Positions 22,669-56,142 of a stretch of 64,000 nucleotides of DNA are shown one piece after another; position 1 is the stretch's first letter, and every line of letters begins with the position of its first letter. Both the position numbers and the translations under genes were made by a program. The notes under the pieces were generated by a model that searched no databases, was not told the DNA's origin, and saw only the letters and a list, made by a program, of their open reading frames with translations. This DNA comes from Balanoglossus misakiensis (lineage: Eukaryota > Animalia > Hemichordata). Location: assembly GCA_040954595.2 (NCBI GenBank), contig CM082579.2:15166550-15230549 (forward strand). The letters are read 5' to 3'.

Positions 22669-23055
22669 ACCTGCTGTACCTCCGCATGTCTCCACAAGAG
22701 CTAGGAGCTCAAAATCGGTCGGACGCAGACCAGCGGTCTGTCAGGTGTAGTAACCGTAACACCAATAAAGGTAGGTTTTCATTGATTCTAATAGGTCTCC
22801 GTTCATCAACATTTCAAATATTCTCCATAATCCAGTAGGTGCCACTGTACTTGAATGAAATATTTCCTTTCAAACTTCCAAATGGTAACCGAATCTCAAA
22901 TCGCAAATCTTTCCATTTTAATAACGAAGTCGGATGCCGAAATTACCAACTCACTTTTTCTATCGGACTCCATCATTCTAATACTTTACTTCAATGTTCA
23001 AAAATTGTGTAAAACAATATCCACTCTCAATCTATATTTCAGGTTTAACGGCGTA

Positions 23056-24538
23056 ATGGCATCCCCGGCCTTTGCTCTATCATAGAGGCAAATGGTATTA
23101 TCTCTTCCAGTGGAAAAGTTGCGGAGCTGTACGTATTCTCCCTTCTATAATCTGTTCAGCCACTTCGGATTTTCTTTCCAGAATTTAAGTTCCAGAACGT
23201 TGCCATCGTGCTGCATACAAGGCACGCTAAACAGTTTCCCGTTGGCGGAATTCCGGATCTCGACATCCTCCATGACGCGCAATTTCACAGCCATGCCTTG
23301 GCTGGTTGCAGATGATGGAGCTAAGGTACGTAACAATCGCACCCCGAAACGCCTGGGCCCTTTTTTGTGTGTAGTCATTGTGGGTATGTTAACCTCCCAT
23401 GTCCTTCATTTTTAGAAATTTAGTATACAAAACTGGATGACCGATTATGTTTTAGAGACCTTTCCCGAATCCACCTGAAGCCCAGTCGGAATGTCTTAGG
23501 ATGTAACCTAAATTCAATATGGCCACCTCCATGCGTTCACTTGCATTTGAAAATACGTTGATTTTATCGTCGATTAGCGGTGTTTATTCTCAGTATCAAT
23601 TTAAACGCGGCACTCGCTCACAAGTCATATTCTAGAAAGAAAGAAAAAATGATAGTTTTGAGTACAGATTACATGTATTTTAAAACGAGGTTTGGTAACA
23701 ATGGTATCACTACTAAATGACTTACAATCGATGTTTTTAATTGTCTTTGCACCACAGTATGAATCCGGTGATGGTAAATCGCATTCAACTTAGAAGGCAT
23801 GGAGAAAGCGCAACTGATGGTAACTGGGATGCCAAACTGAAACTTTTGGGAGAGAAAACCTTGCCATGTACGGACGTGGGTGTCACAGTTAAACTTGGGT
23901 TAAATACTACAGCGACAACCGAAGTCCCGTTGAGATATGATATGTGGTAGTGCATGTCCACATGAGTGCCGTGTACTAGCCTCTCTCTCTGTAAATCCAT
24001 CCAGGCTACTGCTTTCTGTACATTGGAGAGAAATGAGAACAAGATGGTTAAATCATATTTTGTATAAGTTGGTGTTGACGAAAATAAGATGCATGTGAAT
24101 TGTAGGACTGAAATGTTTCTGTAATGAATACTAAATTAAAAGTTCACAACTTGCATGCAGATAGTAAGTGCTGGGGAAGTTGCAGGGTGGAGATTGCTTT
24201 GGTTTAGTTAACTTACTCAATCTTTGTGACTGTTGCATTTCTTGATTGATAGAGTAGTGTACATGCATTGGCAGGTTTTCTAATATGGCCTCCTCTGTAC
24301 CCAAGGTCTGGCATAAGGTGGGACACTGTAAGTATTTGCCGTCTGACACAGAAGATGCCACTTCTAGAAAAAAATAAAAAGGACAGAATGTGATTGGTAA
24401 GACACAGAGACGTGAACATGTACACAAAATGATAGGAAATTGGTGGAAGCAAGTACTGCAGTTAATACTTACTCATCTATGTCTATTCCCTCAAATATCC
24501 CTTCTACCATATCATCACCATTTGGTTCTTTTAACACC
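23056..24538. pseudogene. Scrambled OB-fold gene copy: ATG, inverted exon 1, degenerate exon 3 on +, exons 4-5 on -
   Basis: ATG at 23056. 23070-23308 is the reverse complement of exon 1 at 45136-45375. Exon 3 paralog at 23758-23930 (TDGNWDAKLKLLGEK..VTVKLG..LNTTATTEV). Minus-strand exons at about 24538-24472 (VLKEPNGDDMVEGIFEGIDID) and 24364-24213. Confidence 0.65.
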
Positions 24539-25725
24539 TTAGGGAAAAATTGAGAGTTACATTAGAAGCACCGACAATAGGAGGGGGGGGGGGGTAAGGT
24601 TTGCAGAGAACAGGTTTTTTTATGAACATTTGTGAAAATCAGAAATTAGTGACATGTAGGATTTCAATTTTATGATGTAACATTGTTTTCTTTTCAACAT
24701 CAGTTCTCTGAGTAAAAAGATGGCCATGTAAATTTTCTCTAAGTTTGTTAGAGAAATAAAGTACATGTACAACTTTAGTGTTTCACTAATTGAGTTTCAG
24801 TGTTCTTGTATTGTCTCCTTTGCCCCATGTCAACCTCAAAGTAAATATCAAATTTGCCATTTTTGACTTATTTGTCCTTGTAGTGGGCCACATAGCATTT
24901 TAGTGCAACTTATGAAAATCTGAAGAACCAAATGCCTAATTTACCCACTCTGCACAGATTTATGTCAATGGTACTGACTTGATGATCGGTATAGCGCCCT
25001 CTGTGGTAGGGGGTGGGGGTTAACCTTGCCTTTATATGTTTATCCCTGTCCGGTTCCATTCCAATTGTATCTATGGTAACCTTATTATCAGCAGTAAATG
25101 CCACAATTGTAAAACAGCAATAATTTTAGTATCAAGCACTCTGTGGAATTAAATATACCCTGTGTATTCTTTGTTTCCCATTAGTAATCATGCAACTTTG
25201 CCATTTTGGGCCTTCTGATTTGCTGTATGTGCTCACTAGTCCTTCCCAACGTCTCTGAATTAGAAGGCCATTGTCATTTGTATAGTGTAGACACATTTCA
25301 TTTTAGTACAACTGATGAAAGTCTCGTGAAAAACCAAATGCTTAATTTACCCACTGTGCAAAGATTATCTGAATGATATTGTGTTGATCGTCATATAGTA
25401 TAGCGCCCTCTGCGATAGTATTTGGATGATTGTGCCAGGGAGAAGGGGGTACTGAGGGAGCAGATGCAGATGACAGCAAGGCATATCCACTGAACAATGA
25501 GACGGTACGTGTTGTCAGCATTCAGGGAGAGTAAAAAGGGGAGCGCAAGAGACCAGGATGAAGAGACGAGCAGTATTGCATCATCTGTGGAAATAAATGC
25601 CAAGAGAAGGTAAATGTGGAAGACAAGCACTTAGGGGTTATAAACAAATGTTTTTTTGTGGACAGTTTTAGTATCAAGCATTGTGGAATTAAATATACAC
25701 AGTGTGTGTTGTGTGTTAGATAGGT

Positions 25726-25985
25726 ACATACATACATACATACATACATACATACATACATACATACATACATACATACATACATACATACATACATACA
25801 TACATACATACATACATACATACATACATACATACATGCATACATACATACATACATACATACATGCATGCATGCATGCATACATGCATGCATGCATGCA
25901 TGCATGCATGCATGCATGCATGCATGCATGCATACATACATACATACATACATACATACATACATACATACATACATACATACAT
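25726..25985. repeat. Compound (TACA)n/(TGCA)n microsatellite
   Basis: Read directly; it explains the MYVC and HTYI ORFs. Confidence 0.97.
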
Positions 25986-26020
25986 GGAAAACACACAGCA
26001 AATGGACTCCTTTTTTATCA

Positions 26021-26091
26021 TCCTCACCAGGAATCGAACCAGGATCCCTTATCACAAAGTGACAAGTGCGTTAACCATTACACCATGAGGA
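26021..26091 (-). tRNA. tRNA-Gln-like cloverleaf (tRNA pseudogene or SINE head)
   Basis: TCCTCATGGTGTAATGGTTAACGCACTTGTCACTTTGTGATAAGGGATCCTGGTTCGATTCCTGGTGAGGA: A box, B box GGTTCGATTCC, 7-bp acceptor stem, and an over-long anticodon arm. Confidence 0.55.
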
Positions 26092-26311
26092 TTGTTTTAT
26101 CTCCACTAACTGCCAACACACTGTCCAATTGCACATTCACTCACTGACATATTCAACACACCAGTTTTTTTATTTCAATAAAAATTCACAAATGCATGTG
26201 AGAAATAACAGAGAGTCAGAAATTGGCATCCACAGGAGTTACTGCATTGCTATATGGTATTATAGAGCAGCCAATGCAGTCTAACACTTTTATTAGCTTA
26301 TTAAAGGCAGA

Positions 26312-26605
26312 AAGTCTCTTTGCTGCCCTTTTTTAATAATTATGTGTGATACAAGAGACTGTTAATGTGGATATATAGTGAATCAACGTTCGACCACACA
26401 CAGCTTCCATCCCGTTTGTAGGATATGACAGTAAAAACTCGCCCAAAATGAATAAATGGTAAAGACCAATTATTCATTTTGGCAAGATTTTTCACTCTCG
26501 TGTCTACAAGCAGTGTGTGTTGTTGAATGTTGATTCACTATATATCCACATGTACATTAACATAAATGGTGTCTTGCATCAAACATAATTAATGGAAAAG
26601 GGTCC
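26312..26605. repeat. Foldback copy of a dispersed ~170-bp repeat (single arms in introns at about 12640-12790 and 14935-15092)
   Basis: Core GTTGATTCACTATATATCCACAT...ATCAAACATAATTAATGGAAAA is present inverted (26312-26425) and direct (26470-26605). Confidence 0.75.
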
Positions 26606-27826: not shown

Positions 27827-27953
27827 ATGTATGTATGTATGTATGTATGTATGTATGTATGTATGTATGTATGTATGTATGTATGTATGTATGTATGTAT
27901 GTATGTATGTATGTATGTACCTATCTAACACACAACACACACTGTGTATATTT
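27827..27953. repeat. (ATGT)n microsatellite with the same flank as 25693-25725 (inverted)
   Basis: Followed by ACCTATCTAACACACAACACACACTGTGTATATTT. Confidence 0.9.
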
Positions 27954-30367
27954 GTTGGGCATTTTGGTTTTCTACCACATATCTCAGTAGTTTCCATGCC
28001 ATAGTGACTCTTCAGTTTTACATAATGATATCCAATATAACCCAATCTACTATTAATGCGATTTTTTTTTTCATTTTGATTGTGGAAATGGTTAAAAATG
28101 AAAAACATCTGAATTTGTACTTTAATAAATATAAGCTATATAGTATTTTAAAATGGTCATAAATTTATGTTAACATGGCAAAACATGTTTTAGTGTTTAT
28201 GTATACTTGTTTAATATAGAGAAATAATTGTACAAATAAAATGACAACTTACTTTTGCTTTTAAAAATAATTAAAAATGGTAATGTTTCTTGAGATATAC
28301 CAGGGTTTCTAGAATATAGAGGGCGCTGGCACGGGAACATTTGATGGTTGTCCCCAATACAACATTCTGGTATCATGTTTTATCATCTGTGGACATTTGG
28401 CAGCGATATCCGACAGGATGTGCATAAAATCCCGAGAAGGTCTTCTCGTTGTATTGCTTCTTGAGATATTGAAACTGTCTTGAATCCCAACGCGAATGTG
28501 ATGGTGATGCGTATGTTGTTGCACGTAGTCACATCCGAAAACGAATCAAGTGCTCTTGTTGTTCAGCAGCTGAATATAGGTTAGTGGGATATGTGTATAT
28601 TCTCGTGGTTATTTTTAATGAGTATAAATGACAGAATCGGTGGTTTGAACGTGTAAGAGTTGATGGTATTGGTTATGTAGTTGTGTTTTATCTAATGGTA
28701 GTGTGATTTTAATTGTGTATGAGGCGATGGCAGTTTTGTCAGGCTTTTTTTATTTTCGTGTCGAGCGACATCCAATATGGCGGTTGTCGTTATATACTGA
28801 AAGGGTTTCGTTTGTATGCATGTTTTGGCAAATTGTATATATGTTAAGATGGTGAAGTTTGCTTGAAGGAATAGAAACATCAGAGGCTGGGTACATCGGA
28901 GTTTCTATTTCATTCCATACAAGTTGAAATTAAGCTTATTTTTGGAGTGTATACAGGTACATATGATTATTTAGAAACGGTTTTAGGCAAGTGAATCTGC
29001 TGAATTCGGGCGATCGGTCTTGTATCGTGTGTATGAAACGTACAAGCAGTGGTAGGATATTATTTTGGGATGTGTACTTCAATAGTTTCCATGTCTCTTA
29101 TATGTATTTGTCAAAAAATAAACAGTAGTAAAAATGGATTGTATTTTCCATTATTTTTTCTGTTAATATTGTATGTTTACATGACCAAAAGCCTTAAGGT
29201 TTTCATTGGAATTTATATCAGGGTAATCAATTTGTTTATGATAATTATTTGCTTCAAATATGGAACAATCTGTGTGAGTACATAACAGAAACATTGCTAG
29301 ATAATTTGACATTTGAATTGTTCGTAAGAATGTGAGGACAAGCATAGAATGGCCAAATTATGCTGGTGACCACTCTGTTTAGTGTGTATGCTTTCTAGTC
29401 GTGACAGGCATGTTAAAAACATAGACAATGAAATCTGGTTGGAGCATGAAAAGTAGAGTTGACTTGTTAACATATTTTGATGCCATGAAACCATTATGTG
29501 GACAGGACAATTTATGTGACCAAGAATTGATTTTCTGAATATCACAAGGTTGATAGTGAATTCATTGTAATTTGTTGTCCTGTTTAAGTAGTGGGGTTAT
29601 TGTAAAAAAATCATCATTCGCTATCTTGTACTTGGAGTGATGTCATCTCGACATTGATACATTATGGCTATTGAGAGGTGTGTGTTATGCAGGCAAGTGT
29701 ATATCTTGATGTACTTGTTTAAATACACAATTATACTTAATGATTTAATTTAAAAGTTTTGTTTATTTTCTTGACAGTTTTGGCTACCAAAGAGTTCTCA
29801 AGGTGAGTGTTGGTGTACATCAGTGCAAAGTATCATGTACAAACTAAGAGATCAACACACTCAAATGTGTATTGTGTCGTGTACGAATTAGTTTCGTAAA
29901 TCATTTGTAGATGACGTGTTTAGTTTTGTGGTAAGTGACACTGAGGTTTCAGATCGGATAGGATGATTGTCCAGTGCCATGCATTGTGTGTTAACATGTG
30001 AAAGCACTAGCCTAATTTGTTTGAAATTTGGTATTCAGGGATGATGTAAGAAAAAATAATTTTAACAGTTCATAGAATCAGTGTTTATTAATACTTCAAA
30101 AAGGTATGTGACTTGAATGTGTGCAGTACATCATTGTGCTATGTGGTGTTAACACCATTGAATAGTGCCATTACTTACAGCAATCTTACAGCAATGGCTT
30201 CAGTAAAACATTGAGTATGATTTGTGTGATTCCTGATACCCCTGTCTTGTCATTTGTGATGTTTTACTGTGTACTTTTTGAAATAAAGAAACTGGTGTGT
30301 TAGTTGAATATGTCAGTGAGTGAATGTGCAATTGGACAGTGTGTTGGCAGTTAGTGGAGATAAAAAA

Positions 30368-30438
30368 TCCTCATGGTGTAATGGTTAACACACTTGTCAC
30401 TTTGTGATAAGAGATCCAGGTTCGATTCCTGGTGGGGA
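30368..30438 (+). tRNA. tRNA-Gln-like cloverleaf (second copy)
   Basis: TCCTCATGGTGTAATGGTTAACACACTTGTCACTTTGTGATAAGAGATCCAGGTTCGATTCCTGGTGGGGA; A and B boxes present and stems pair. Confidence 0.55.
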
Positions 30439-30710
30439 TGATGAAAAAAAGAGTCCATTAGCTGTGTGTTTGAGTATGAGTGTAATATATGTATGTACGT
30501 ATTTATGCATGTATGTAGCCAGCAAACACACAAAACATATTGTGTATATTCAATTCCATACAGTGTTTGATAATAAATATGTTGCTGTTTTACAATTTGG
30601 CATTCACTGCTGATAATTAGGTTTCCATAGATACAAGCGGAATGCAATAGAAGAGGGATAACCATATACATGTATAGAAAAGGTAGGTTACCCCTTCCCC
30701 TATCATCCAA

Positions 30711-31330
30711 ATACTACCACAGAGGGTGCTATACTATATGACCATCAACTGAGTATCATTCAAATACTCTGTGCACAGTGGGTAAATACACATTTGTTTT
30801 TTTAGGAGACTTTCATCAGTTGCAGTAAAATACAACATGACTACACTATATACACCAATGAGAATGGCCATGTAATTCAGAGAGTGCTTGATATTAAAAC
30901 TGTATCATAGTTGTGGCCTTTACTGCTGATAATTAGTTTACCATAGATACAAGCCCAATGCAACAGGACAGGGATAAACATATGCAAAGACAAGATTAAA
31001 CCCCACCTCCATAATCAAAATACTACCGCAGAGGGCGCTATACTATATGACCATCAACTGAGTATCATTCAAATACTCTGTGCACAGTGGGTAAAGACTT
31101 ATTTGTTTTTTTAGGAGACTTTCATCAGTTGCAGTAAAATACAACGTGACTACACTATATACACCAATGAGAATGGCCGTGTAATTCAGAGAGTGCTTGA
31201 TATTAAAACTGTTTCATAGTTGTGGCCTTTACTGCTGATAATAGGTTACCATAGATACAAGCCCAATGCAACAGGACAGGGATAAACATATGCAAAGGCA
31301 AGATTAAACCCCACCTCTGTAATCAAAATA
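30711..31330. repeat. 309-bp tandem array, left part (2 units)
   Basis: ATACTACC(A/G)CAGAGGG at 30711 and 31020; the array resumes at 38312 after the LINE/Gypsy insertion. Confidence 0.92.
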
Positions 31331-32132
31331 ATAATAATAATAATAATAATAATTTATTTGTATAGTGTCAGTATCCACAAAAATGTGATCAATGACGCTT
31401 AAAGCAAAAGTACAATACAACAAATGGCTAAAAAACAGATTTAAAAAGTAAAGTTTTAACATTTGATTTAAAAACAGATAAGTCTGGTGCCTGGCGAATG
31501 GTAAGTGGAAGATTATTCCAAAGAATTGGAGCAGCAACAGTAAAAGCACGATCACCATAACTCTTGGTGCGTGATCGAACAAGGCAGAGTTTGAACTGAT
31601 CAGCTGACCTTAAATTGCGACACGGAACATATAGATTAGTCATGCTAGAAAGATAGATTGCGCCAGTGGGGATGCAAGCCCAATTATCGATGAGTCGGAA
31701 TCACAACCAGACACTTGGAAGTTGAGAACAATAACCAGTTTAATCGATACACTTCGTCGATCGATATATAAACATACATAGAGCAATGGCGGTCCAGCGG
31801 GGAGAGAGAGGACCGAGCATGCGCAAAAGGAACAAAAGTATAAACTAGTAACTACGAGTGAGGGCGTGCTACCGAACGCACTCCAGCAACACTAATGGAA
31901 TGGCGTAGCCACCTTCTCTTACATCCACTTCTCTTTCTGTCCATCGAGCAGGAAAAAAATTTGACACAGGAAATGTGAGCATAAAATGCAAAGAAAAACA
32001 TGAACATGCATGTTGACTGAGTCCTACAAAAGTCAAAAGCTGCAATGAAAGTGAGAACATGAAAGTCAATAAAAATAAATGGGAGTACTGGGGGCAACAC
32101 TGTTCAGCACAAAAATATAAAGGTCTGAAACT

Positions 32133-35100
32133 CTAAAAGTTCACTTCATAGTCATCAAAGCGGGTGGGACGACGGCGAGCGCGGGTGGATTTTCTTGTAC
32201 CCTCAGTGGTGAGAGGTTGATCTGGTCGACTATCTTCAGCAGGAGCTGACATGTCAGTGGTTTCCATGGGGCTGCACACTGTGGGTTGGATATCACTGGT
32301 ACTGGTGTCGCATTTGGTAGTAGTAGTATCGCAGACACCAGGTGTGGTACTTTGTATGTGATCTGACTTCCTGGGCGATGCGAGTTCCGAAGGAATGCTT
32401 GGGGGTTCAGGCACTGCGGTTGGTGGCCGACACGGTGTATCGTCATCAGATGAGTGCTCCTCGTTCGCTCCCTTCATGGGTATTGAGTGATCGGTCGCTG
32501 AAAATGGCACTAAGTAGCATTCTGACTGCTTGACGCGATACGAAGTCTTACGGAGTTGGTTTCCGCGGAACTTACGGATACAACACCATGGCGGGTCGCT
32601 CTGGATGACCAAGTAGCGGTCTCGAGAACGGGATTTGTTGCGGTCTGAGTGTAGGTATACCAGGTCCCCAACTTCTAGCGACGGGGCTATTGGCATGCGT
32701 CTACTGGGAGTTTTGGAGGTCTCACTGGAGCGATGGTTGGCCTTGCGGAGGGCGTGTTGTGCAAGAATCAGCTGTTGGTCACTGATCGGTAACTGATCAT
32801 GGGTAAACTGGTCTCTTTGAGTCCACATTTCACGGGAAGACAAACCTCTAGACCTGATGCGGGAGTTGACGTGTGAGAGGGCTATGGCCAGGGAGAGTGG
32901 TGTGATGGTAGAACACAGAGGGTCCTGGCGTAGGAGCTCGTCTTCAATTTCTTGAATAGCTCTATCTGCGACAGGGTTTTTGTTACGATTCTTGATGCGA
33001 CCAATTTCAATGGTCAACCTGTGCTGACGAAGGAGGTCATCGTTGATGAGGGCTGCAAAGCCCGGAGCTGGGTCAGTACGGATAACAGCGTGTGGACCAT
33101 CTAAAGGTCGAAGTTCAATGCAAAGTCTCACGAGGGCAACACGTAGGGTATCATGGCGTTCGTCCTCAATAAGACAAGCTGACGTGAATGATGTGACGCA
33201 TTCGCGGAGTACTAGGACTAATTGACGCTCACGCTTGATTATATCAGCAGCGAAGGAAATGCCGATGACTTCAGGCGGATCTGTAGTTGACTGTGTGACT
33301 ATGGTATTGGGAACCTTGGTGAGTGAGGCGCAATGGTGGCATGTAGAGGAGACATGCTCGATGGATTTGTCCAAGTCCAGGGCGTAGAAGTAGCGATGTG
33401 TCACTTGCTTCAGTTGGTGGCATGATGGGTGACCTAGACGAATGTGAATGGCAGTCAGAAAGCCATCCAAAACTTGTCGGGGAACTACGATGCGGTCACT
33501 AGGAGGGACAAAGGGATCCGTCCGGGAGACAACAAGCAACCCATCCTTGGCAATAGTTACGTTGTTCAGGTAGCGTTTTACATCCCTGATGTTGGTGAGC
33601 TTCTTTGATGGACGCGTTCCCTGAGTTAGGTGGGCGTGAGTACGACGCAAATCTGGACAGTCGGCTTGTATGCTGAGCCAAGTCGCCCTGTTGGTAAATG
33701 GTAGCTTTGCGTTACCGGAGATGACGTCCTGTACGGACAGGGATCTGACAACAGAATCTTCGGTACGTGCGACGAATGTGCAGATTTGGCAAGTGGGAGA
33801 GTCACAATCTGGGGCATTACGACTGGCGAAGTCTGATGGGATGTTTTCGCTGCCAGCAAGATGTCTCACAGAGGCCTGGTACCGGCTCACGGTTGAGAGG
33901 AAGGTTGTTACTCGTGGGCTGGCGGAGAATTCGCCACGGCACAACTTCTCATATGCTTGTACGCATGGTTTACTGTCTGTGAGTATACATGGCTTGTGAT
34001 GAGACTGTATAATATAAGGGCTAAAATGCTTGGTGGCAACTGCAATGGATAGAGCCTCAACCTCGCAGGGGAGCCAAGTGACCTGCCGACCACGAAGTTT
34101 GGCACTGAAGAATCCAGCAACGTGGAGTTTGTCATCTCGGGAGACATATAATGTAGCGCCAATTCCGTTGTACTTCACGGCACCATCTGTGATGATCCAA
34201 AGTTGGTCGGATGGGCGTGGCAAAGTGATCGATCGGCTTGTGGAAAGTGCAGACTGGGCAGTGTGGAAAGCCTCACGGAGCTTGTCAGTCCACTCAATAC
34301 GGTCGCTAGACTGTTTCCCAGCGGCGGCATCTTCTAACGCTGTGAGGAGAAATGCGCAGCCTGGAATTACTCTAGCTAACACCTTGTATGCACCTATGAA
34401 AGATCGAAGTCCACGAACATTCTCTGGTGTAGAGCATGAGGAAAGGGGTGCGATACGGTGTTTGCTGGCACTGATTGTTCCTTGGTGCCAAATCCATCCC
34501 AGGATCATGGTAGTAGCTGGGCATTTAGCCGTTTTGGCGGCAGAAAGGCATAATGCCAACGCATGTAATGCCTGTAGCAGACATTTCCAGTTGGTCTTGA
34601 GCTCATGTATGGAATTACCACCACAGAATAAGTCGTCAGCTAGTTTAGCTACAACACCATCTGCAAGGAGATCACCTAGGACGCGACACATGAGTTCTTC
34701 GAGGGCAGTTTCAGAACCGGGCATGCCCATAGCACATCGTGTGTAGACGCGTATGCCTCGGAACGGAGTAGCTACGCCGCAATATTTCAGGGACGTCCTT
34801 GAAAGCGGTATTTGGTAGAAGGCCTTGGTTAGGTCTGTGGTAATTATGTATTTCCACTGCACGATGTGGCGAAGAGTACCATCCACATCTGGTAATACAG
34901 ACGGCTGGGGTTTGCTATAGCGACCCACGTCAGCGAAGGCAGTGACTAGTCTAGAGCCACCGTTGGCTTTTTTTACCAGGAATGAGGTGTTTATGTATTC
35001 GACGCTAACACTCAGGTCTTCTGGTCGGGCGAATACACCCATTTCTTCCAACTCATCGAACTTGGCCTGTAGTTCCAACAGCTTGTCATGTGGATAGAAG

Positions 35101-35141
35101 GGGAGGCGCCCCTTTCGCTGTGGTGGTTGCACAGGGCCCAT
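32133..35141 (-). CDS. pol: Pol (RT, RNase H, integrase) of the Troyka-like element
   Basis: [23 protein letters not shown] (RT); TDGA..GIGA, CEVEAL, TDSKP (RNase H); [31 protein letters not shown] (integrase). The frame is open upstream to about 35439. Confidence 0.93.
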
Positions 35142-35421
35142 ATTGACAACTGCTTCGAAGGGACCCGACGCACCGTTGTAGCCCTTGACGGTAGGGTTGA
35201 AAACGTCATCAAACTCTTGGTGAAGAGAGCGGAAAGCTGTACGGTCTGCTTGTGATAGGAGATTGTCAGGGTCAAGCTTAATGTCATTTGAGTAGTTGCC
35301 GACAGTGGTTGGAGACTTGGTGGGGAGAGTCTTCGTGGTGGAACTGCTGTGATCTATGACTGGGGTGAAGGTGGCGCGTACTTGGCAAAAGTGTTCGTTG
35401 CGCTGAAGTGTTTGTGGACTG

Positions 35422-37077
35422 TCAGATAAGTTGGGAATGAAGTTTTCCAGCTACACTTGTCAACAGGTCTGGTGCTGGCCATGTGTTGTTAGGCGTGAAC
35501 ATCTTGTTAGGACGTGTGTCTGATCTAGGTTCGACTGCGTACGTCGTGTCAGTGGCCTGGAGTTCTGGTGGTAACTCTACCTCGATGAAGTCACCTGGCC
35601 AAATGGTAGAAGACACGGGAGGGGCCCTGAGTACATGGGTCCTGCGGATGCTGTGGCCGGTTGCTGGTGTTGACCTGTAGGTGTATGTCGTACCGTCACC
35701 GATCATGATTTGGCACTTGGCTGGGCGGACACTGATGTCATTTAGCTCCATAAAGGGAGTCCCTGCCAATAAGTCGACATCCAGGTTTTCCACAACTAGG
35801 CCCTCGAATATGAAGTTGATGTTGTCGCGTGTCAATTGGAATCTAGTTTCGCCTACAACTTTCAAGGGGGAAGAGCCATCGGCCTGATGTGCGGATTGGG
35901 AACTGGATTTTATTGGTACATTCAGTCGTCTGGCTAAAGACAGGCGCATCATGTTACCAGTGGCACCACTGTCGATAATCGCGCGGACGGTTTGGTAACC
36001 ATAGAAAGTATCCAGGTATGGTGACTGGCGGACCTGAATTCGTAGGGCGGTGTTGGTAGTGCTTGAGTCTTGTTGTGAGAGTTCATCACTTGGAAGACAG
36101 TCATCTTCATCACTGTTAATGTCGAATATGTTAGCAACCTGTCGTGCTTTGGTCATGAACCGGCGATCTTGGTCTGGTAGGAACTCACACTCACTTAGAA
36201 AATGCTGAGCCGGTCTGCCGGCTTGCTTGCACAGGGGACAGGAGCGATATGTTTTACGGCTTCTCTGTCTTGCTTTGGGCGGACCAGTAGAGCGAGTGGG
36301 AAAGTTGTCCTTATAACGAGTGGTGTTGTGGTAGTTGGCTGCGGCGGTGCGCATGACAGTGGCGTCTTCTGTAGTGTGTATCTCATCCAGGAGAGAAGAT
36401 AATGCCTGTGATATTTCTGGCTTTACGGAGGCTAATGTACGGGTGCGTAACTCCGTGCCGTACCGTTGTTTAACAAGTCTCGGGAGATCTTTATGTATTA
36501 GCTGCAACCAGGTTAAGACCACAAAATTTTCCAAAGATGGGGAAAGCTCTTCATCCTCGGTAATGGCATCGCCGTGGTGGGATATACCGCTATCACGACG
36601 GAGTAGGTTGTCCTCAATGAATGCGGTGAGGCGTTGGTAGAGGTCTTCAGGACGCTCATCGGGCTGAAGGTGGATTTGGCAAAAATCGATGAAATGAGCG
36701 CCAGTAGACTGGAAACCATAATGTAAACGAATTACCTGCCAAATACTGTCTATGGATGTCGAGTTCTTGACAATAGTACTGCGGGCTATAACGGGGCAGT
36801 AGTTGGCTATTTGGCCCAACATAAGCTCCAGAGCATTAACCTTCTGCTGGGCTGTAAGGCGTTTGTTTGCGCTGATGTCCTCACCGTCGTTGGTAAACCC
36901 TCTCAGTGGACTAGACTTCGTTTTGTTTGTCCATTGTGCGCCCTCAGCGAGGAAAGGTGCAAAATTAGCATCAAGTGATAACGTATATCTGAGGTTTTGG
37001 CGCCAATTCTCGAAGGAATTAATAGTCTCTGATTTACTGAGACACCATTGCTTGGGTGCCCGCTGGAATGATGCCAT
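35422..37077 (-). CDS. gag: Gag-protease of the Troyka-like element (frameshifted relative to pol at about 35440)
   Basis: Zn knuckle [18 protein letters not shown]; aspartic protease [18 protein letters not shown]. Confidence 0.9.
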
Positions 37078-38311
37078 GATGTACTCTGGTAATGACTACA
37101 ACTTCTGTGCTATCCAGTTAATGTATACTGACCGGTTGTACACTATGTGTGTGTGTCCGACAACTTGTTGACCAGGCAATATATGGTCCAGCGACGACTG
37201 TTATGTCTTCAGGAGGCGTGTAGATTCGAAATCGCTGCCACCACGCCAGTGGGGATGCAAGCCCAATTATCGATGAGTCGGAATCACAACCAGACACTTG
37301 GAAGTTGAGAACAATAACCAGTTTAATCGATACACTTCGTCGATCGATATATAAACATACATAGAGCAATGGCGGTCCAGCGGGGAGAGAGAGGACCGAG
37401 CATGCGCAAAAGGAACAAAAGTATAAACTAGTAACTACGAGTGAGGGCGTGCTACCGAACGCACTCCAGCAACACTAATGGAATGGCGTTGGACCAAGTT
37501 TATGAATGGATTTAAAAATGAGAACTAACATCTTAAAAACAATACGCTGTGTAACAGGTAGCCAGTGCAACTGATACAAAATTGGAGTGATGTGACAGGT
37601 GATTTTTGAATGAGTAACAATTCTAGCAGCAATATTCTGAACGCGTTGGATACGGTTGATTGAATACTTCGGGAGCCCAAATAAAAGTGAATTACATGAA
37701 TCAATTCGAGAAGTAATGAATGCATGAACTAATTGCTCTGTAGCAGAATGAGATAAATATTTGCGGATAAGCGCAATGCGACGTAAATGAAAAGTGGCAG
37801 AGCGGCAGATCTGTCCAATATGTGGCTTCATTGTCAGACAAGAGTCAAGGATCACACCAAGGCTCTTAGCCTGACAATGGACAGGAATCAGAGAATCGCC
37901 AACACGAATTTCTGAAATCCCTCTAGCAGACAGATCACCTGAAATACCAAAGAAAATAACAAATTCAGTCTTATCATCGTATAAGCACAAGAAGTTTTCA
38001 GACATCCAAAACCTAACATCGGATATACAAAGTTCAAGATTTGAAACAGTTCTTGCTGCGTTGTCTTTACTAAAAGACATATAAAGTGAAGAGTCATCTG
38101 CATAAAAACTATAAAGACAACCATGACTTTGAACTAATTCACCAAATGGAGACGGGTACATATTGAAAAGTATGGGACCAAGAACTGATCCCTGTGGTAC
38201 CCCAGTGTCGAGCCGATAGAAAGGTGATTGGGTGGAATTTACAAGTACACACTGACTACGATTGGAAAGGTATGACTTAAACCACATGAGAACAGTATCT
38301 GAGAGACCAAA

Positions 38312-39560
38312 ATACTACCACAGAGAGTGCTATACTATATGACCATCAACTGAGTATCATTCAAATACTCTGTGCACAGTGGGTAAACACACATTTGGTT
38401 TTTTAGGAGACTTTCATCAGTTGTAGTAAAATACAACGTGACTACACTATATACACCAATGAGAATCGCCATGTAATTCAGAGAGTGCTTGATATTAAAA
38501 CTGTTTCATAGTTGTGGCCTTTACTGCTGATAATTAGGTTACCATAGATACAAGCCCAATGCAACATGACAGGGATAAACATATGCAAAGACAAGATTAA
38601 ACCCCACCTCCATAATCAAAATACTACCACAGAGGGCGCTATACTATATGACCATCAACTGAGTATCATTCAAATACTCTGTGCACAGTGGGTAAAGACT
38701 TATTTGTTTTTTTAGGAGACTTTCATCAGTTGCAGTAAAATACAACATGACTACACTATATACACCAATGAGAATGGCCATGTAATTCAGAGAGTGCTTG
38801 ATATTAAAACTGTATCATAGTTGTGGCCTTTACTGCTGATAATTAGGTTACCATAGATACAAGCCCAATGCAACATGACAGGGATAAACATATGCAAAGA
38901 CAAGATTAAACCCCACCTCCATAATCAAAATACTACCACAGAGGGCGCTATACTATATGACCATCAACTGAGTATCATTCAAATACTCTGTGCACAGTGG
39001 GTAAAGACACATTTGGTTTTTTAGGAGACTTTCATCAGTTGTATTAAAATACAACGTGACTACACTATATACACCAATGAGAATGGCCATGTAATTCAGA
39101 GAGTGCTTGATATTAAAACTGTTTCATAGTTGTGGCCTTTACTGCTGATAATTAGGTTACCATAGATACAAGCCCAATGCAACATGACAGGGATAAACAT
39201 ATGCAAAGACAAGATTTAACCCCACCTCCATAATCAAAATACTACCACAGAGGGCGCTATACTATATGACCATCAACTGAGTATCCTTCAAATACTCTGT
39301 GCACAGTGGGTAAAGACACATTTGGTTTTTTAGGAGACTTTCACCAGTTGCAGTAAAATACAACGTGACTACACTATATGCACCAATGAGAATGGCCGTG
39401 TAATTCAGAGTGCTTGATATTAAAACTGTTTCAAAGCTGTGGCCTTTACTGCTGATAATTAGGTTACCATAGATACAAGTGGAATGGAACCGGACAGGGA
39501 TAAACATACAAAGGCTAGGTTAACCCCCCCCCCAATACTACCACAGAGGGCGCTATACTG
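38312..39560. repeat. 309-bp tandem array, right part (about 4 units)
   Basis: Unit starts at 38312, 38621, 38930 and 39239. Confidence 0.95.
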
Positions 39561-39954
39561 ATCATCAAGTCTGTACCATTGAAATAAATCTGTGCAGAGT
39601 GGGTAAATTAGGCATTTGGTTCTTCAGATTTTCATAAGTTGCACTAAAATGCTATGTGGCCCACTACAAGGACAAATAAGTCAAAAATGGCAAATTTGAC
39701 GTTTACTTTGAGGTTGGCATGGGGCAAACGAGACAATACAAGAACACTGAAACTCAATTAGTGAAACACTAAAGTTGTACTTTATTTCTCTAACAAACTT
39801 AGAGAAAATTTACATGGCCATCTTTTTACTCAGAGACCTGATGTTGAATAGAAATGTGGTAGTGCAGGTCCACATGAGTGCCGTGTACTAGCCTCTCTCT
39901 CTGCAAATCCATCCACAACTTGCATGCAGATAGTGGGAGTCTGATGTAAGCAAC

Positions 39955-41385
39955 TACTGCAGTTACAGTCAGGACGTAAGTGGGATAATTAAACAGCAGG
40001 GGATCATGCAATGCAAACACTTGAACTGGCCAGTAACGTTTGAATTGCTCATTTGCATACAGTTTTTCAACTTTTTTCACAACGAAAGTTAAGCAACTAG
40101 CAACCCATTTCTGACAATTATTTCACCCCAGGCACATTACTGGTACTATGAGTGTACTACATGTGATTTTTCATGAAGTTTTATCGAGAAGAATTTCTTT
40201 ACTTCCACTGACAAAATTGTGATCTCGAAATTCAAAGTGACCTTGAAGTTACAAAAAAAAAATATCAGCCATACCCACACAAAAATTAACCCCCTCAGGT
40301 TTTAGAAACATTATTAAACTCCTCTATTCATAATTTTGACATGAATATATCCATGCCGAGAGTCAAGGACCACAATTTACTGTGCCATAGGTCAGTCCTG
40401 AGAAGTCAGTCAGCGTGAATAGTGTATAGACTCCTTATGTAATATGCTAATGAGAGATAACGACGCGTTGAAAAGGAAGCCATTACGTCATGGGTTAACA
40501 TGCGTTGACCTACTTCAATGCATACACATATGGCAAACACGGCTGTACTCGTCGATGGCGAAGGCAATTTTTACACCGTCATTACTCCACAACGGAGCGG
40601 CTCACACTATTATAATTTCACGGTAACTTAGTTCAATATCTTCCTAACCTACCCAATTTTTTTCAAGACAAGAAATCTTTGCCGAGAGTCAAGGACCACA
40701 ATTTAAACCAACATACCGAAACTGTCTTTCTCGGGAAAGCGTCGTTAAAACTTCACGAAAAAATCATCCTATCATTGACTATGGTGTTTCATACACGTCT
40801 TAGAAAAATGGGTGCACTACGATCACTTGTAGTACCGAAAATCTCCGTTTGAAAATTTTTCGAACTGGCCGTAACTGCCACTCAGCGACTTTCACATTCA
40901 AATAGATCTCTTTGATCTCACCGCCGTAATTACCCCACTTTCGTCCTGACTGGTTAATACTTACAAAGTGTATTACCTCCAACACCCCATGGACGGTATC
41001 ATGTCATCACCAGTAGCTATAGGTTCTTTTAACACCTTGAGAGAAAAAAATGGATTGTTACTGATAGATTACAAAGCACTGACAATACAAGAGGGGGAGG
41101 GGTAAGGTTTGTTGAGAGCAGTTGTTTTTTGCTAAACATTAGTGAAAATATGAAATTATTGACATGTAGGATTTCAATTTTATGATGTAAGAGTATTTTA
41201 TAATATCTCACCGGGACTTCAGTTGTCGCTGTAGTATTTAACCCAAGTTTAACTGTGCCACCCACGTCCATGCATGGCAAGGTTTTCTCTCCCAAAAGTT
41301 TCAGTTTGGTATCCCAGTTACCATCAGTTGCACTTACTCCACGCCTTCTAAGTTGAATGCGATTTACCATCACAGGATTCATACT
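39955..41385 (-). pseudogene. OB-fold gene paralog B remnants (exons 3-5)
   Basis: Exon 3 at about 41385-41212 (TDGNWDTKLKLLGEK..VGGTVKLGLNTTATTEV). Exon 4 starts AG|GTGTTAAAAGAACC at about 41036. Exon 5-like LYANEQFKRYWPVQV at about 40060-40010. Confidence 0.5.
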
Positions 41386-41865
41386 GTGGTGCAAAGACAA
41401 TTAAAAACATCGATTGTAAGTCATTTAGTAGTGATACCATTGTGACCAAACCTCGTTTTAAAATACATGTAATCTGTACTCGAAACTATCATTTTTTTCT
41501 TTCTAGAATATTAGAACGCGCTCAAAAATAAAAATGCGACCTGTAAGCGAGTGCCGCGTTTCAATTGGTACTGACGATAAACACCGCCACTCGGAGATAA
41601 AATCAACGTTTTTTTTTTAATGCAAGTGAACGCATGGAGGCGGCCATATTGAATTTAGGTTACATCCCAAGACATTCCGACTGGGCTTCAGGTGGATTCG
41701 GGAAAGGTCTCTAAAACATAATCGGTCATCCAATTTTGTATACTAAATTTCTAAAAATGTAGGACATGGGAGGTTAACATACCCACAATGACTACACACA
41801 AAAAAGGGCCCAGGCGTTTCGGGGTGCGATTGTTACGTACCTTAGCTCCATCATCTGCAACCATG

Positions 41866-42673
41866 CAGCCAAGGCGTGGCAGTGAAATTGTGCCTCATTG
41901 AGGATACAGTCTAGATCCGGAATTCAGCCAACGGCAAACTGTTTAGTGTGCCTTGTATGCAGCAGGATGGCAACGTTCTGGAACTTAAATTCTGGAAAGA
42001 AAATCCGAAATAGCTGAACAGATAACAGAAGAGAGAATACATACAGCTCCGCAACTTTTCCACTGGAAGATATAATACCATTTGCCTCTATGATAGAGCA
42101 AAGGTATGTTATAATCGCACCCCGAAACTTATGGGCCTTTTTTTTGACGTAGTCATTTTGGGTATCTTAACCTCCCATCTTCTACATTTTTAGAAATTTA
42201 CTCTACAAAATTGAATGACCCATTACATTTTAGAGACCTTTCCCGAATTCAACCGAAGCCTAATCGGAAGGTCTTCGGATGTAATCCAATATGGCAGCCT
42301 CCATGCGATCACGTACATTGAAAATCCATTGATTTCATCGCCGATTACCGATGTTTATCGTCAATACCGATTCAAACGCGGCACTCGTTTACAAGTCGCA
42401 TTTATTTTTGATCGCGTTCCAATATTTTAAACAAACTAGATTACTGATAAAAATGCTCAAAATTTTTCCTCCAAATGCCATCTTTACGGATTCAGTCACA
42501 CAACTTACAGACTACGCCAAACTTTTTTCCAGATCATACCTTGCGGGCGTAAAGCGATGGATATACCTGAAAAATTGGTAACAGAATTGTATCATCCGCC
42601 ACAAATAATGATATCAGAAGTCGAGATATCTCCACAGAAGAAGAGGGTGTGCGTTGTAGGAAAAGTCCATGAT
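41866..42673 (+). pseudogene. OB-fold gene paralog A: exon 1 (with stop), intron and exon 2
   Basis: Exon 1 ends LYDRAK|GT at 42103 and has TGG changed to TAG at 42010-42013. Exon 2 at 42533-42673 (AG..GT, phase 0) reads IIPCGRKAMDIPEKLVTELYHPPQIMISEVEISPQKKRVCVVGKVHD. Confidence 0.7.
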
Positions 42674-45105
42674 GTGAGTACTGTCAAATGTTGCACAAAT
42701 AGCCGTTAAACCTGAAATATAGATTGAAAGTGGATATTGTTTTACACAATTTTTGAACATTGAAGTAAAGTATTAGAATGATGGAATCCGATAAAAAAAG
42801 TGAGTTGGTAATTTCGGCATCCGACTTCGTTATTAAAAATGGAAAGGTTTGCGATTCGGTTCAAGTAGTATTTGCAAGTTTGAAAGGAAATATTTCATTG
42901 AAGTACAGTGGCAACTACTGCATTATTGAGAATCTTTGAAATGTTGATGAACGGAGACTTATAATAGAATAAATGAAAACCTACCTTTAACGGTGTTAGG
43001 GTTACTACACCTGACAGACCGCTGGTCTGCGTCCGACCGATTCTGAGCTCCTAGCTCTTGTGGAGACATGCGGAGGTACAGCGGGTTAACGGTTAGGAAG
43101 TGTTGATGAAAGGAATGATTAATTACATAGGCCAATCAGGATCCTGGAGTTAGATATTCGAGTGAAATGGTGGAAAAACGGGAATGCCGATTGGTTCAAT
43201 TTAACCGGAGGGAAATTGCTACATTATATGACGTCAGTTGCGAACGATAATGCATATATTAAGCTAAGGTTGAATCCGGTTTTTCCATCAAGCACAAGCA
43301 TATTTCAGTCATAAAAAAAACGAAGAGAATAACACTAAAAAAATATTTCCTTTTTAAAAACTTCACTATAGCATTATTATAATGATGTACGTCGTACATA
43401 AAATGATACACGTGACATCGACTTGTTCAGAGTTTTAAAACAGGTAGAGAGTGCCCATGGGTAACCCGAAAACACACAAACCGGGTAAAAAATGAAAGTC
43501 CTGCGAAGGCCAGGAGTATACACTGAAAAATTACAATAAATCTAGTACAAAGGTTTGTATCCTCACGAATAATTAACTCTGATTGCATAAGTTTATTTCC
43601 GTCTCATTACCTTCTGAAAGCAAATCACTCACTTGCCGGTAAAAGTTGAGTAAAATACTACATCTAAACTGCATAGCGATGGCGGCCCATAAAAATAATT
43701 GCCCAGTGTCCCACTCGCAATGCACAACTTTTTAGGCCAAGTGCTAATGATATTCGAATTTTCGAAGGTTACGCAATATACACATACATGTATAAATATT
43801 AATTTATGAACAATTTCCAGTGTTCACGCTGGGATTTCTTTCGTTCTAGTTTACTCGTTATATAATGTACCAATTCCCTCCGGTAAGTTGAGCCGATTCC
43901 CATCACTTTGAGCCAATCGATATTCATGGTTTTTCAGCATTTCAGTCGACTATATTTACACCTGTTGCATGTCTTTGCAGTTTTTGACTTGACGCTTACA
44001 ACCGAGTCGCACCGCACGCAGTACTATCTTGTTGTCTTCATGTTTAGTTGTTGTTTTGCGCACACTATTTGCACAAAAATATCTGCTCGTTTTGTTATCA
44101 ACGATCGAGTATATGTTAGGAAGTCCGACATAGAGAACTTTGTTCTAAATATTCAATGCCCCACAAATGATATACTACACTGCTCGACACAACACACCCC
44201 AGCCATACTCCATTAGTACACGCCACAAACACCGTATTTATACAGCCTGAGGGATTTCAGCTTCGAACTTATTGCCCAATCATATTCGACTATTTCCAAC
44301 CAATCCCCTTCTGACTAATTGACCAATCACACGCTTCGAGCATAATTTCCAAAAAAGGGAAAACTAACGAATTTGCTACATCTTTCCGGTTTCATCTTCA
44401 ACAGTTTCTAACATTTTTTTGGACCCCCCCCCCCCTCGATAAACACCCATACTCAAAGGGTAACTTCATTTAATTGTCAGTAAATAAAATCAATTCACAG
44501 TCTTATTACATGTACTATTTATAATATACTCAAATTTCCACTACAAAATATCTGTATATGTGCGTTAAATTCTGAAATCTTTCCACCCAAACCTCTAGTT
44601 ATGCAAATTTAAATTGCTGTCTGTTGCGTTCGCCTACGGTTTCTCATTTTCGGACATTCGAATCTAACTCCTGATTGGCCTATAAACTTATTTCTTTCAT
44701 CAACACTTTCTAACCGTTAACCCGCTGTACCTCCGCATGTCTCCACAAGAGCTAGGAGCTCAGAATCGGATGAACGAGACAAGCGGTCTCTCACGTTTAG
44801 TAACCGTAACACCGTTAAAGGTAGGTTTTCATTGATTCTAATAAGTCTCCGTTCATCAACATTTCAAAAATTCTCCATAACCCAGTAGTTGCCACTGTGC
44901 TTCAATGAAATATTTCCTTTCAAACTTGCAAATGGTAACCGAATCTCAAATCGCAAATCTTTCCATTTTTAATAACGAAGTCGGATGCCGCAATCACCAA
45001 CTCACTTTTTTATCGGACTCCATCATTCTAATACTTTACTTCAATTGTCAAAAATTGTGTAAAACAATATCCACTCTCAATCTATATTTCAGGTTTAACG
45101 GCGTT

Positions 45106-45998
45106 ATGGCATCCCCGGCTCCCGGTCCCTCATCCCCAACCAGCCAAGGCGTGGCACTGAAATTGCGCCTCATGGAGGATGTCGAGATCCGGAATTCCGC
45201 CAACGGGAAACTGTTTAGCGTGCCTTGTATGCAGCAGGATGGCAACGTTCTGGAACTTAAATTCTGGAAAGAAAATCCGAAGTGGCTGAACAGATTACAG
45301 AAGGGAGAATACGTACAGCTCCGCAACTTTTCCACTGGAAGAGATAATACCATTTGCCTCTATGATAGAGCAAAGGTACGTTATAATCGCACCCCGAAAC
45401 TTATGGGCCTGACTTTTTTTTGCCGTAGTCATTTTGGGTATCTTAACCTCCCATCTTCTACATTTTTAGAAATTTACTCTACAAAATTGAATGACCCATT
45501 ACATTTTAGAGACCTTTCCCGAATTCAACCGAAGCCCAATGGGAAGGTCTTCAGATGTAATCCAATATGGCAGCCTCCATGCGATCACGTACATTGAAAA
45601 TCCATTTATATGATACAACCATGCCTTGTCAACTCACCTCGGGTCAAAATTACTGCCATCGATTCATCATTTTGCAGTTCAAATTTTAAAAAGCAACTGA
45701 CAAAAAACAACCACTCTTGCACTATTTCTCCACAACATTTACTACTCGTAATTATTAACATTCAATGTTTTCCATTTTATTTCCACTACAGTATGAATCA
45801 GTGACACATACATCGAATTCTACAAAGAGACGTAAACTGACCATAACTGATGGCACAAGAGATGCTGAAGTCAACCTTTGGGGTGAGAAAACAGCGCTGC
45901 CACTGGATGTAGGTGCCACAGTTAAACTAGGCCCATTGGTTATCAACAGATATAAAACATCGTCCACATTAAATACAACAGCGACAACTGAAGTGGAG
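45106..45998 (+). CDS. Spliced OB-fold (RPA/ssDNA-binding-like) gene copy: exon 1 (45106-45375) and exon 3 (45792-45998); exon 2 deleted, downstream exons replaced
   Basis: Exon 1 MASPAP...VLELKFW..LQKGEYVQLRNFSTGRDNTICLYDRAK|GT. Exon 3 AG|YESVTHTSNSTKRRKLTITDGTRDAEVNLWGEKTALPLDVGATVKLGPLVINRYKTSSTLNTTATTEVE|GT carries the KR-L-I-D-T---V-LWG pattern of RPA-like OB folds. Both exons are phase 0. A 5'UTR intron spans 44821-45092. Confidence 0.65.
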
Positions 45999-46019
45999 GT
46001 GAGACATAAAATACTGTTC

Positions 46020-56138: not shown

Positions 56139-56142
56139 GTAA

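What the first reader, a model, noticed from the sequence alone, without database searches (positions are those of the whole stretch)
22669..45998. Unannotated spliced tandem OB-fold gene whose exons are scattered over several inverted, chimeric copies
No single copy is complete, but a five-coding-exon gene can be assembled from the pieces. E1 is 45106-45375 (..LELKFW..LQKGEYVQLRNF..LYDRAK). E2 is 42533-42673 (..PPQIMISEVEISPQKKRVCVVGKVHD). E3 is 45792-45998 (..KRRKLTITDGTRDAEVNLWGE..LNTTATTEVE). E4 is about 24538-24472 and E5 about 24364-24213, both on the minus strand. Splice sites are canonical and E1-E3 are all phase 0. E2 plus E3 make a recognisable RPA-like OB fold and E1 looks like a second one, a two-OB layout also seen in RPA70 and HIN-200 domains. 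At least two diverged paralogs exist. An ssDNA-binding gene amplified inside palindromes suggests cargo of an unrecognised large mobile element, or a fast-turnover nucleic-acid sensor family; that part is inference.
Basis: partly seen in the sequence, partly recalled or inferred. Interest (0 to 1): 0.8.

Follow-up and report, generated by a model that had tools for sequence, protein, structure and literature searches.

The report
Scrambled relic of orphan OB-fold gene
Three mirror-image, broken copies of a real but database-unknown animal gene lie here; the gene is predicted to encode a small RPA-like single-stranded-DNA-binding protein, and the copies were likely made and shuffled in place by replication or repair errors at a palindrome, not by a new mobile element.

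Summary
The gene is real. All five coding exons are there within 1 nt of the stated places, with GT/AG sites, phases 0,0,0,2 and one open frame of 277 codons. It also has a non-coding first exon and a CCAAT-rich, CpG-rich head-to-head promoter region. E3 of the two paralogs shows past purifying selection (dN/dS about 0.3). E1 and E3 each hit RPA-type OB folds weakly but concordantly (PDB, NCBIfam, ESM features). Structure prediction failed, so the fold is likely, not shown. No search returned a relative or a HIN match.

The pieces form three alternating arms (A forward, B reverse, C forward) built from two old paralogs, with local inversions and two separate deletions of E2. No arm can make the protein. 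Low-depth contigs in two DNA runs hint at another copy with intact exon order. I found no linked Rep/helicase, transposase or recombinase, no element ends and no sign of high copy number.

Best reading: a dead, locally scrambled pair from a low-copy orphan OB-gene family (0.5). Main rival: a derelict Helentron RPA-like gene (0.3). Genome-wide copy number and RNA could not be tested.

The parts
44673..44820 (+). Arm C promoter end (CCAAT box, TATA-like word) and non-coding exon 0, donor at 44820|44821; start of transcription not known
45093..45375 (+). Exon 1, paralog 1, open (ATG 45106; 90 codons); predicted first OB fold
45376..45791 (+). Fused intron of arm C: 5' part of intron 1 joined near 45600 to the 3' part of intron 2; exon 2 deleted (7-nt shared word at the break)
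   Evidence: joint 42621-45601
45792..45998 (+). Exon 3, paralog 1, open (69 codons); predicted strands 2-5 of the second OB fold
46016..47434 (+). GC-rich foreign fragment that cuts intron 3 of arm C; arm C has no E4 or E5
   Evidence: joint 41190-46016
43095..44720 (.). Head-to-head spacer between arms B and C: 6 NF-Y-type CCAAT boxes, CpG observed/expected about 1.1; extra inverted match 43154-43233 with 43856-43953
42702..43141 (-). Arm B promoter, exon 0 and intron 0 (93% identical to arm C), cut just before the ATG
41847..42701 (+). Inverted paralog-1 piece inside arm B: exon 1 without start (3 stops), intron 1, the only exon 2 (42533-42673, open), 28 nt of intron 2
40953..41849 (-). Paralog-2 body in arm B: end of exon 1, intron 1, exon 2 deleted, exon 3 (frameshift near its start, 36-nt deletion), intron 3, decayed exon 4
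22667..23069 (+). Arm A: part of exon 0, intron 0 and the first codons of exon 1; left end abuts a high-depth repeat
23070..23318 (-). Arm A: exon 1 inverted in place, 97.5% identical to arm C, one stop
23319..23942 (+). Arm A: paralog-2 intron 1 to exon 3, 95% identical to arm B, same lesions
24473..24537 (-). Exon 4 (65 nt, phase 2), likely paralog 1, inverted inside arm A
24213..24363 (-). Exon 5 with stop; only copy in the window
24687..26185 (+). Distal flank of arm A: 309-bp repeat units, TACA microsatellite, tRNA-like head 26019-26092 (minus)
30272..39854 (-). Distal flank of arm B: tRNA-like head 30367-30440 (plus), 309-bp array split by a LINE fragment and a Gypsy element

Best explanation
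This is the wreck of a head-to-head pair of a real spliced gene whose 277-residue product is predicted to carry two RPA-type OB folds and likely bound single-stranded DNA; the pair now lies as three alternating, internally inverted arms, likely produced in place by template switching and repair at the palindrome, and no arm can still make the protein. Steps: (1) shown: the exons, splice sites, open frame, first non-coding exon and CCAAT/CpG promoter region. (2) Shown: two paralogs split long ago (dS about 0.9) under purifying selection. (3) Predicted: two OB folds, each keeping the strand-3 tryptophan that lines up with RPA. (4) Inferred: ssDNA binding as an accessory in replication, repair or the germ line, under a proliferation-type promoter. 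(5) Inferred: arm-to-arm conversion near the palindrome centre, then inverted amplification and secondary deletions and inversions. (6) Inferred: a working copy of this low-copy, fast-evolving family sits elsewhere. No mobile element is needed for anything seen in the window.
For: Gene anatomy. OB fold: E1 best PDB hit 2k50 RPA-related protein E 0.03 (1 of 2 hits); E3 only PDB hit RPA32 6i52_B E 0.042; both hit NF009030 replication factor A, E 0.017 and 0.012, while 0 of 74 control frames hit RFA or SSB models and 3 of 74 hit anything; Pfam REPA_OB_2 E 0.035 for E3; ESM features 0.96 with 200 of 256 shared to a REPA_OB_2 cluster for E3 and OB-clan neighbours at 0.90-0.92 for E1 (one source). 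Layout forward-reverse-forward with spacers of about 4 kb and 0.6 kb matches inverted triplication with secondary rearrangement (PMC10766186, abstract and passages). Identity falls away from the B/C centre: exon 0 and intron 0 93-94%, paralogous intron 1 84-86%, exon 3 74%, exon 4 78%. Six CCAAT boxes in the spacer, reached by 0 of 148 other windows of that size. No element enzyme or ends. Joints in runs X3 and X4 at depths 40-180 link intron 1 towards E2, E2 to intron 2, and E3's intron onward, which fits another copy in intact order.
Against: Every OB hit is below its curated cut-off; AlphaFold2 gave pLDDT 47 and 38, and the E3 profile A1 did not retrieve OB chains from the PDB. No relative was found in any protein collection, although earlier notes on this genome report acorn-worm database matches for other genes; repeat-masked transposon genes would be missing in just this way. 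The cluster likely lies inside a large intron among many transposons, which needs a DNA-based move at some point. The distal flank (4-nt microsatellite, spacer, tandem array) resembles non-autonomous Helentrons (PMC7492417 passages). The other copy is known only from short joints (40-54 nt sides) at 1-5% of the window's depth and may belong to another individual or species.
Confidence: 0.5

Rival explanations
1. The gene is the RPA-like accessory gene of a rolling-circle transposon (Helentron or Helitron) that has lost its Rep/helicase; it would have coated the displaced single strand during transposition, and the arms are decayed, rearranged element copies.
For: Helentrons and some animal Helitrons encode RPA homologs, very divergent in zebrafish and sea anemone, and an RPA-only, RepHel-less rice element is known (PMC4067079, PMC6431247, PMC4683698; passages). 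Both OB exons are RPA-type. Orphan status, likely intronic site, HINE-like flank. Earlier unchecked notes report many Helentrons in this genome.
Against: No Rep or helicase frame in the window. No subterminal repeat, 5' hairpin or hairpin-plus-CTRR end at the candidate ends. The mite Helentron RPA is 358 aa, intronless and hits RPA1 domains at 1e-12 to 1e-15; this gene has five introns and E about 0.01-0.04. Depth in X1/X2 is 1-13 across the arms against 25-50 on neighbouring repeats (contig depth is no true copy number).
Confidence: 0.3
2. The gene is a non-mammalian relative of the HIN-200 domain (AIM2, IFI16): a stand-alone DNA sensor or restriction factor that turns over by birth and death.
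For: Two tandem OB folds with a linker of about 25 residues is the HIN layout (PMC3458909 passages). Paralogs diverge fast and die often. Recalled, not from any call: some uncharacterised fish database proteins of similar size carry two OB folds and a short tail; untested lead.
Against: No HIN hit for E1, E2 or E3 in Pfam at E up to 1 or the PDB at E up to 10, nor among the ESM neighbours listed. No pyrin, CARD or death-fold exon among 235 frames. Mammalian HIN is two exons and was not found outside mammals in 2012; here the two folds span three exons. No ISRE or kB consensus in the spacer.
Confidence: 0.1
3. The pair is cargo of an undescribed large mobile element that replicates through hairpin or palindromic intermediates, giving head-to-head and tail-to-tail copies.
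For: Alternating arms with both junction types; orphan protein; three groups of CCAAT boxes that may mark more than two promoters.
Against: No second gene, enzyme, terminus or target duplication found. No relatives in viral contigs, phages or prokaryote genomes. Ordinary inverted amplification explains the layout.
Confidence: 0.07
4. The inverted chimeras are an assembly or amplification artefact of one intact gene.
For: Palindromes are hard to assemble; depths in X3 and X4 are very uneven.
Against: Arms differ by 2-26% with private stops and indels, and carry private insertions; contigs of runs from two studies cross five junctions.
Confidence: 0.03

Closest known systems
RPA-family OB folds: archaeal replication factor A (NF009030; PDB 2k50), RPA32 (PDB 6i52_B), Pfam REPA_OB_2
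   Same: E1 and E3 align weakly over strands 2-4 of the OB barrel, including the strand-3 tryptophan; that this residue stacks on ssDNA in RPA is from my knowledge.
   Different: 277 residues, two folds and a 71-residue tail with no hit; no RPA70 N-terminal domain or zinc-finger DBD-C, no detectable relative, whereas core RPA is conserved and single-copy (PMC4683698 passages).
Helitron and Helentron RPA-like genes (Helentron of mite and Drosophila, PMC4067079; Mothra mother element, PMC4683698; zebrafish and Nematostella Helitrons, PMC6431247)
   Same: Divergent RPA-type protein with two ssDNA-binding folds in a transposon-rich setting; HINE-like microsatellite and tandem array in the flank.
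   Different: No RepHel, no subTIR or 3' hairpin found, a head-to-head pair of old paralogs, apparently few copies.
HIN-200 domain of PYHIN proteins (AIM2, IFI16; PMC3458909)
   Same: Two tandem OB folds, rapid duplication and pseudogene formation.
   Different: No sequence match on single exons, no pyrin domain, three exons instead of two, RPA-type neighbours in every library.
Inverted triplication with secondary rearrangement (ODIRA, DUP-TRP/INV-DUP; PMC10766186)
   Same: Forward-reverse-forward arms with widened spacers and short shared words at some junctions.
   Different: Old (arms 3-7% apart), built on a much older paralog pair, and with extra internal inversions that swap pieces between paralogs.

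Membership tests
OB-fold ssDNA-binding proteins, RPA type | Profile match to RPA or SSB OB families | tested here: met
   Weak but concordant, below curated cut-offs; control 0 of 74 frames
OB-fold ssDNA-binding proteins, RPA type | Five-stranded barrel in a confident model | tested here: inconclusive
   pLDDT 47 and 38; fold searches on the E1 model meaningless. Strand-strand-strand-helix-strand-strand order in the E1 model fits OB but is low confidence
OB-fold ssDNA-binding proteins, RPA type | ssDNA binding | not testable with these tools
   needs purified protein
Core RPA subunits or POT1 (host orthologs) | Conserved sequence readily found in other animals, with the subunit's domain set | tested here: not met
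   No relative at E 0.01-10 in three word searches and one full phmmer search; no POT1 or RPA family above cut-off
HIN-200 / PYHIN | HIN profile or PDB match | tested here: inconclusive
   None on single exons; the spliced two-fold protein was not searched
HIN-200 / PYHIN | N-terminal pyrin domain | tested here: not met
   ATG lies 15 residues before the first strand; exon 0 is non-coding; no death-fold hit in 235 frames
HIN-200 / PYHIN | HIN encoded by two exons | tested here: not met
   three exons here
Helentron / Helitron | Rep/helicase gene in the element | tested here: not met
   no such Pfam hit in 235 of 253 frames of 45 codons or more; window only
Helentron / Helitron | subTIRs with 5' hairpin and 3' palindrome, or hairpin plus CTRR end | tested here: not met
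   six candidate ends folded and scanned, none found; old ends could have decayed
Helentron / Helitron | Dispersed copies with shared ends | not testable with these tools
   no genome held
TIR transposon, Polinton or tyrosine-recombinase element | Linked transposase, polymerase or recombinase with terminal repeats or target duplication | tested here: not met
   the THAP-DDE/YqaJ element at 53.9-59.3 kb is separate and 8 kb away
Inverted triplication | Three arms in alternating orientation with two inversion junctions | tested here: met
Inverted triplication | Template-switch origin at short inverted repeats | tested here: inconclusive
   short shared words at some internal junctions; the original centres are overwritten

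The most novel reading that the evidence does not exclude
The gene is an invertebrate deuterostome member of the lineage that gave rise to the HIN-200 DNA-sensing domain, so far held to be mammal-only: a stand-alone two-OB protein family that turns over fast in palindromic pairs.
Probability: 0.1. Interest if true: 0.8.

Novelty: new member of a known kind. Interest (0 to 1): 0.36.

Why it matters
Even on the plain reading this is an unannotated animal OB-fold family with no database relative, and the pieces give its full exon map, so the living copy can be found by one genome search. The locus is also a clear natural case of a palindromic gene pair destroying itself. It would matter much more if the protein proved to be HIN-related, which would push AIM2-type DNA sensing back beyond mammals, or if intact copies marked a new element class; neither is supported at present.

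Tried and rejected
No whole genome is held. Word-based homolog searches: E1 longer (0 of 63 candidates), E3 longer (0 of 148), E3 alignment near length (0 of 3). phmmer of E1 over 1.84 billion representatives: 1 hit, a 1,856-aa repeat protein scored through 7 short stretches, rejected. Exact look-up: 0 of 5 frames in the collection. Metagenome scan with E3: 1 locus (L001), a bacterial glycosyltransferase region with no sensible ORF at the match, rejected; the scan stopped at 41 of 64 parts. Viral contigs, phages and prokaryote genomes: none. AlphaFold2 on E1 and on E3 failed; Foldseek and VIA-align on the E1 model gave only noise. Complex prediction of E2 with E3: no answer, score 0.25 against a mark of 0.34, no evidence either way. 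E1 against E3 by BLASTP: no alignment. RNA: no RNA holder listed; 2 of the 18 RNA runs listed were laid and gave 0 reads even on host exons and repeats, so no test. Earlier findings by sequence, words and relatives: nothing on this gene. Ten paper searches listed no description of this gene or of a non-mammalian HIN family; I saw listings only, apart from the six papers cited, and opened no supplements. Rescue by splicing or simple recombination was considered and rejected: E1 of arm B, which precedes E2, has three stops and no start, and E4-E5 lie on the other strand 21 kb away. Promoter scan for ISRE, kB, E2F and CHR words: 0 each in the spacer.
Full report
1. Observation. The stated exons are in the sequence. 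E4 is 24537-24473 and E5 24363-24213 on the minus strand; their phase-2 splice is in frame and ends at a stop, so the five pieces sum to 277 codons without a stop. Upstream of E1 there is an acceptor at 45092, a non-coding exon ending at 44820, and a CCAAT box near 44675. The 1.6-kb spacer between the two divergent promoters holds 6 NF-Y-type CCAAT boxes, a number reached by 0 of 148 other overlapping windows of that size (mean 0.3), and has CpG observed/expected of 1.08-1.16. Splice sites are kept at the same places in both paralogs. Over 45 aligned codons of E3, the paralogs differ at 40 bases, 20 of them third positions, dN/dS 0.27-0.30 and dS about 0.9. This was a protein-coding gene.

2. 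Layout. Self-alignment gives three arms: A forward (22667-26185), B reverse (30272-43233) and C forward (about 43856-46016). Two paralogs are mixed in them. Paralog 1 supplies open pieces: E1 and E3 in C, E2 in an inverted insert inside B, and likely E4-E5 in an inverted insert inside A. Paralog 2 supplies the body of A and B, with a frameshift and a 36-nt deletion in E3 shared by both arms and a decayed E4. E1 is inverted in both A and B at a shared breakpoint and has 1 and 3 stops. E2 is deleted from C and from paralog 2 at different points. C is cut in intron 3 by a GC-rich fragment. Identity is 93-94% for exon 0 and intron 0 among arms, 84-86% for paralogous intron 1, 74% for E3 and 78% for E4, and 93-96% between A and B in shared parts. 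No arm, and no splice path on one strand, gives the whole protein. Contigs of runs from two studies cross five of the junctions, with the caveat that they may include the source sample.

3. Other copies. No genome is held. In runs X1 and X2 the arms have depth 1-13, host exons 1-5 and neighbouring repeats 25-50; the tool warns that contig depth is no copy number, so this only argues against a high-copy family above 80-85% identity. Runs X3 and X4 hold low-depth relatives: an E3 with 30 substitutions in 225 nt, an intron 1, a promoter variant, and joints 41439-42437, 42621-45601 and 41190-46016 that fit intron 1 leading to E2, E2 leading to intron 2, and an uninterrupted intron 3.

4. The protein. 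E1's best PDB match is an archaeal RPA-related OB domain (2k50, E 0.03), E3's only match is RPA32 (6i52_B, E 0.042). In NCBIfam both hit the same replication factor A model (E 0.017, 0.012); of 74 control frames that I picked from the window, 3 hit any model at E 0.05 or less and none an RFA or SSB model. Pfam gives REPA_OB_2 for E3 at E 0.035 and two unrelated weak hits for E1. ESM features place E3 at 0.96 beside a REPA_OB_2 cluster and E1 among POT1, RFA and SSB-like clusters (one source). Against this, all hits are below curated cut-offs, E2, E4 and E5 hit nothing, the three-sequence E3 profile missed OB chains, and AlphaFold2 failed without relatives. I rate two OB folds as likely (about 0.9 for E3, 0.85 for E1; my estimate). 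In both exons the tryptophan of strand 3 aligns with the RPA tryptophan; from my knowledge this is a base-stacking position, so ssDNA binding is the inferred activity. Paralog 2 has leucine there. No search found a relative, which rules out core RPA or POT1 orthologs.

5. Element or host gene. I scanned 235 of the 253 stop-to-stop frames of 45 codons or more that lie beyond 20650 and outside the two LTR elements and the THAP element (18 microsatellite or tandem-repeat duplicates left out). Only the LINE RT and one spurious microsatellite frame passed a Pfam cut-off. Six candidate ends show no strong terminal hairpin, no subterminal repeat beyond the A/B arm match and AT-rich chance words, and no hairpin-plus-CTRR end. 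What favours an element is the setting: a likely intron of 43 kb or more in a pentraxin and ephrin-repeat gene, a high-depth repeat at A's left end, a flank with microsatellite, spacer and tandem array like oyster HINEs (PMC7492417, passages), and the precedent of RPA-like genes in Helentrons and Helitrons, including an RPA-only element (PMC4067079 passages and section 8; PMC6431247 passages; PMC4683698 passages). Earlier AI notes call this genome an acorn worm rich in Helentrons (not tested here). What favours a host gene is the six-exon structure, the CpG and CCAAT promoter, an old head-to-head paralog pair and few copies.

6. Mechanism. The simplest account is a head-to-head pair whose centre was kept alike by arm-to-arm conversion (inferred from the identity gradient), then an inverted amplification that made arm A from arm B, with template switches that dropped paralog-1 pieces, inverted, into paralog 2. 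Inverted triplications with unstable palindromic junctions and secondary rearrangements are a known outcome of fork errors (PMC10766186, abstract and passages). The order of events is inferred, not shown.

7. HIN. The domain is two OB folds, encoded by two exons, and was not found in non-mammals in 2012 (PMC3458909, passages). No single exon here matches it, there is no pyrin exon, and the promoter region lacks ISRE and kB consensus words. The spliced protein itself was not searched or folded, so a remote link stays open. I recall uncharacterised fish database proteins with two OB folds and a short tail; this comes from no call and is a lead only.

8. Verdict. Observation confirmed; interpretation partly supported. 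A real, unannotated orphan gene with likely RPA-type tandem OB folds, present here only as scrambled pseudogenes. Host family scrambled in place 0.5, Helentron-type RPA gene 0.3, HIN relative 0.1, new element 0.07, artefact 0.03. Novelty: new member of a known kind. Interest 0.36.

Noticed in passing
window 53901-59307: Convergent THAP plus DDE_Tnp_4 gene (plus) and SAP-like plus YqaJ gene (minus), with long open frames; the pairing recalls ISL2EU-type transposons (name recalled). A palindromic repeat pair lies between them at 56143-57143.
   Followed up: partly
window 31661-37489: Gypsy-type element with 100% identical 246-bp LTRs, inside a LINE RT fragment, inside the 309-bp array of arm B.
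   Followed up: partly
window 47435-52332: Second LTR retrotransposon, LTRs 98% identical, minus strand, in a run of C.
   Followed up: partly
window 46016-47434: GC-rich fragment with a 332-codon open frame holding an Arg/Ser/Pro-rich stretch; no Pfam, NCBIfam or PHROG hit of note; diverged relatives at low depth in X3 and X4. Unidentified; in frame with E3 if the donor is read through.
   Followed up: partly
window 26019-26092 (-) and 30367-30440 (+): tRNA-like heads (ARAGORN Lys-TTT; Rfam 42.5 and 51.4 bits) with a 4-nt microsatellite tail and no T-run terminator, likely a short SINE copied with the arms.
   Followed up: partly
window 11400-20492 (-): Host gene with pentraxin, EGF-like and ephrin-receptor-like repeat exons. 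Its exon at 20492 starts in mid-pentraxin and no upstream exon was found up to 64000, so everything above likely lies in one intron of 43 kb or more.
   Followed up: partly
window 44276-44330: Three CCAATC words about 24 bp apart, 350 bp before arm C's promoter, and a further promoter-like copy at 43856-43953: possibly more promoters than the two accounted for.
   Followed up: no
window 45600 and about 41439: Exon 2 was deleted twice, at different breakpoints, in paralog 1 (arm C) and paralog 2; unexplained coincidence.
   Followed up: partly
runs X3 and X4: The whole window is at depth 1,000-8,000 while diverged relatives are at 25-550; the cause is unknown.
   Followed up: no
window 3280-5566 and 59448-60512: Tandem arrays: 86-bp unit x27 (96%) and 356-bp unit x3 (98%).
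   Followed up: no
window 29780-29804 (+): A 25-nt exon-like piece with good acceptor and donor in the A/B spacer, downstream of a CpG-rich stretch near 28300-28900; perhaps part of another decayed or non-coding gene.
   Followed up: no
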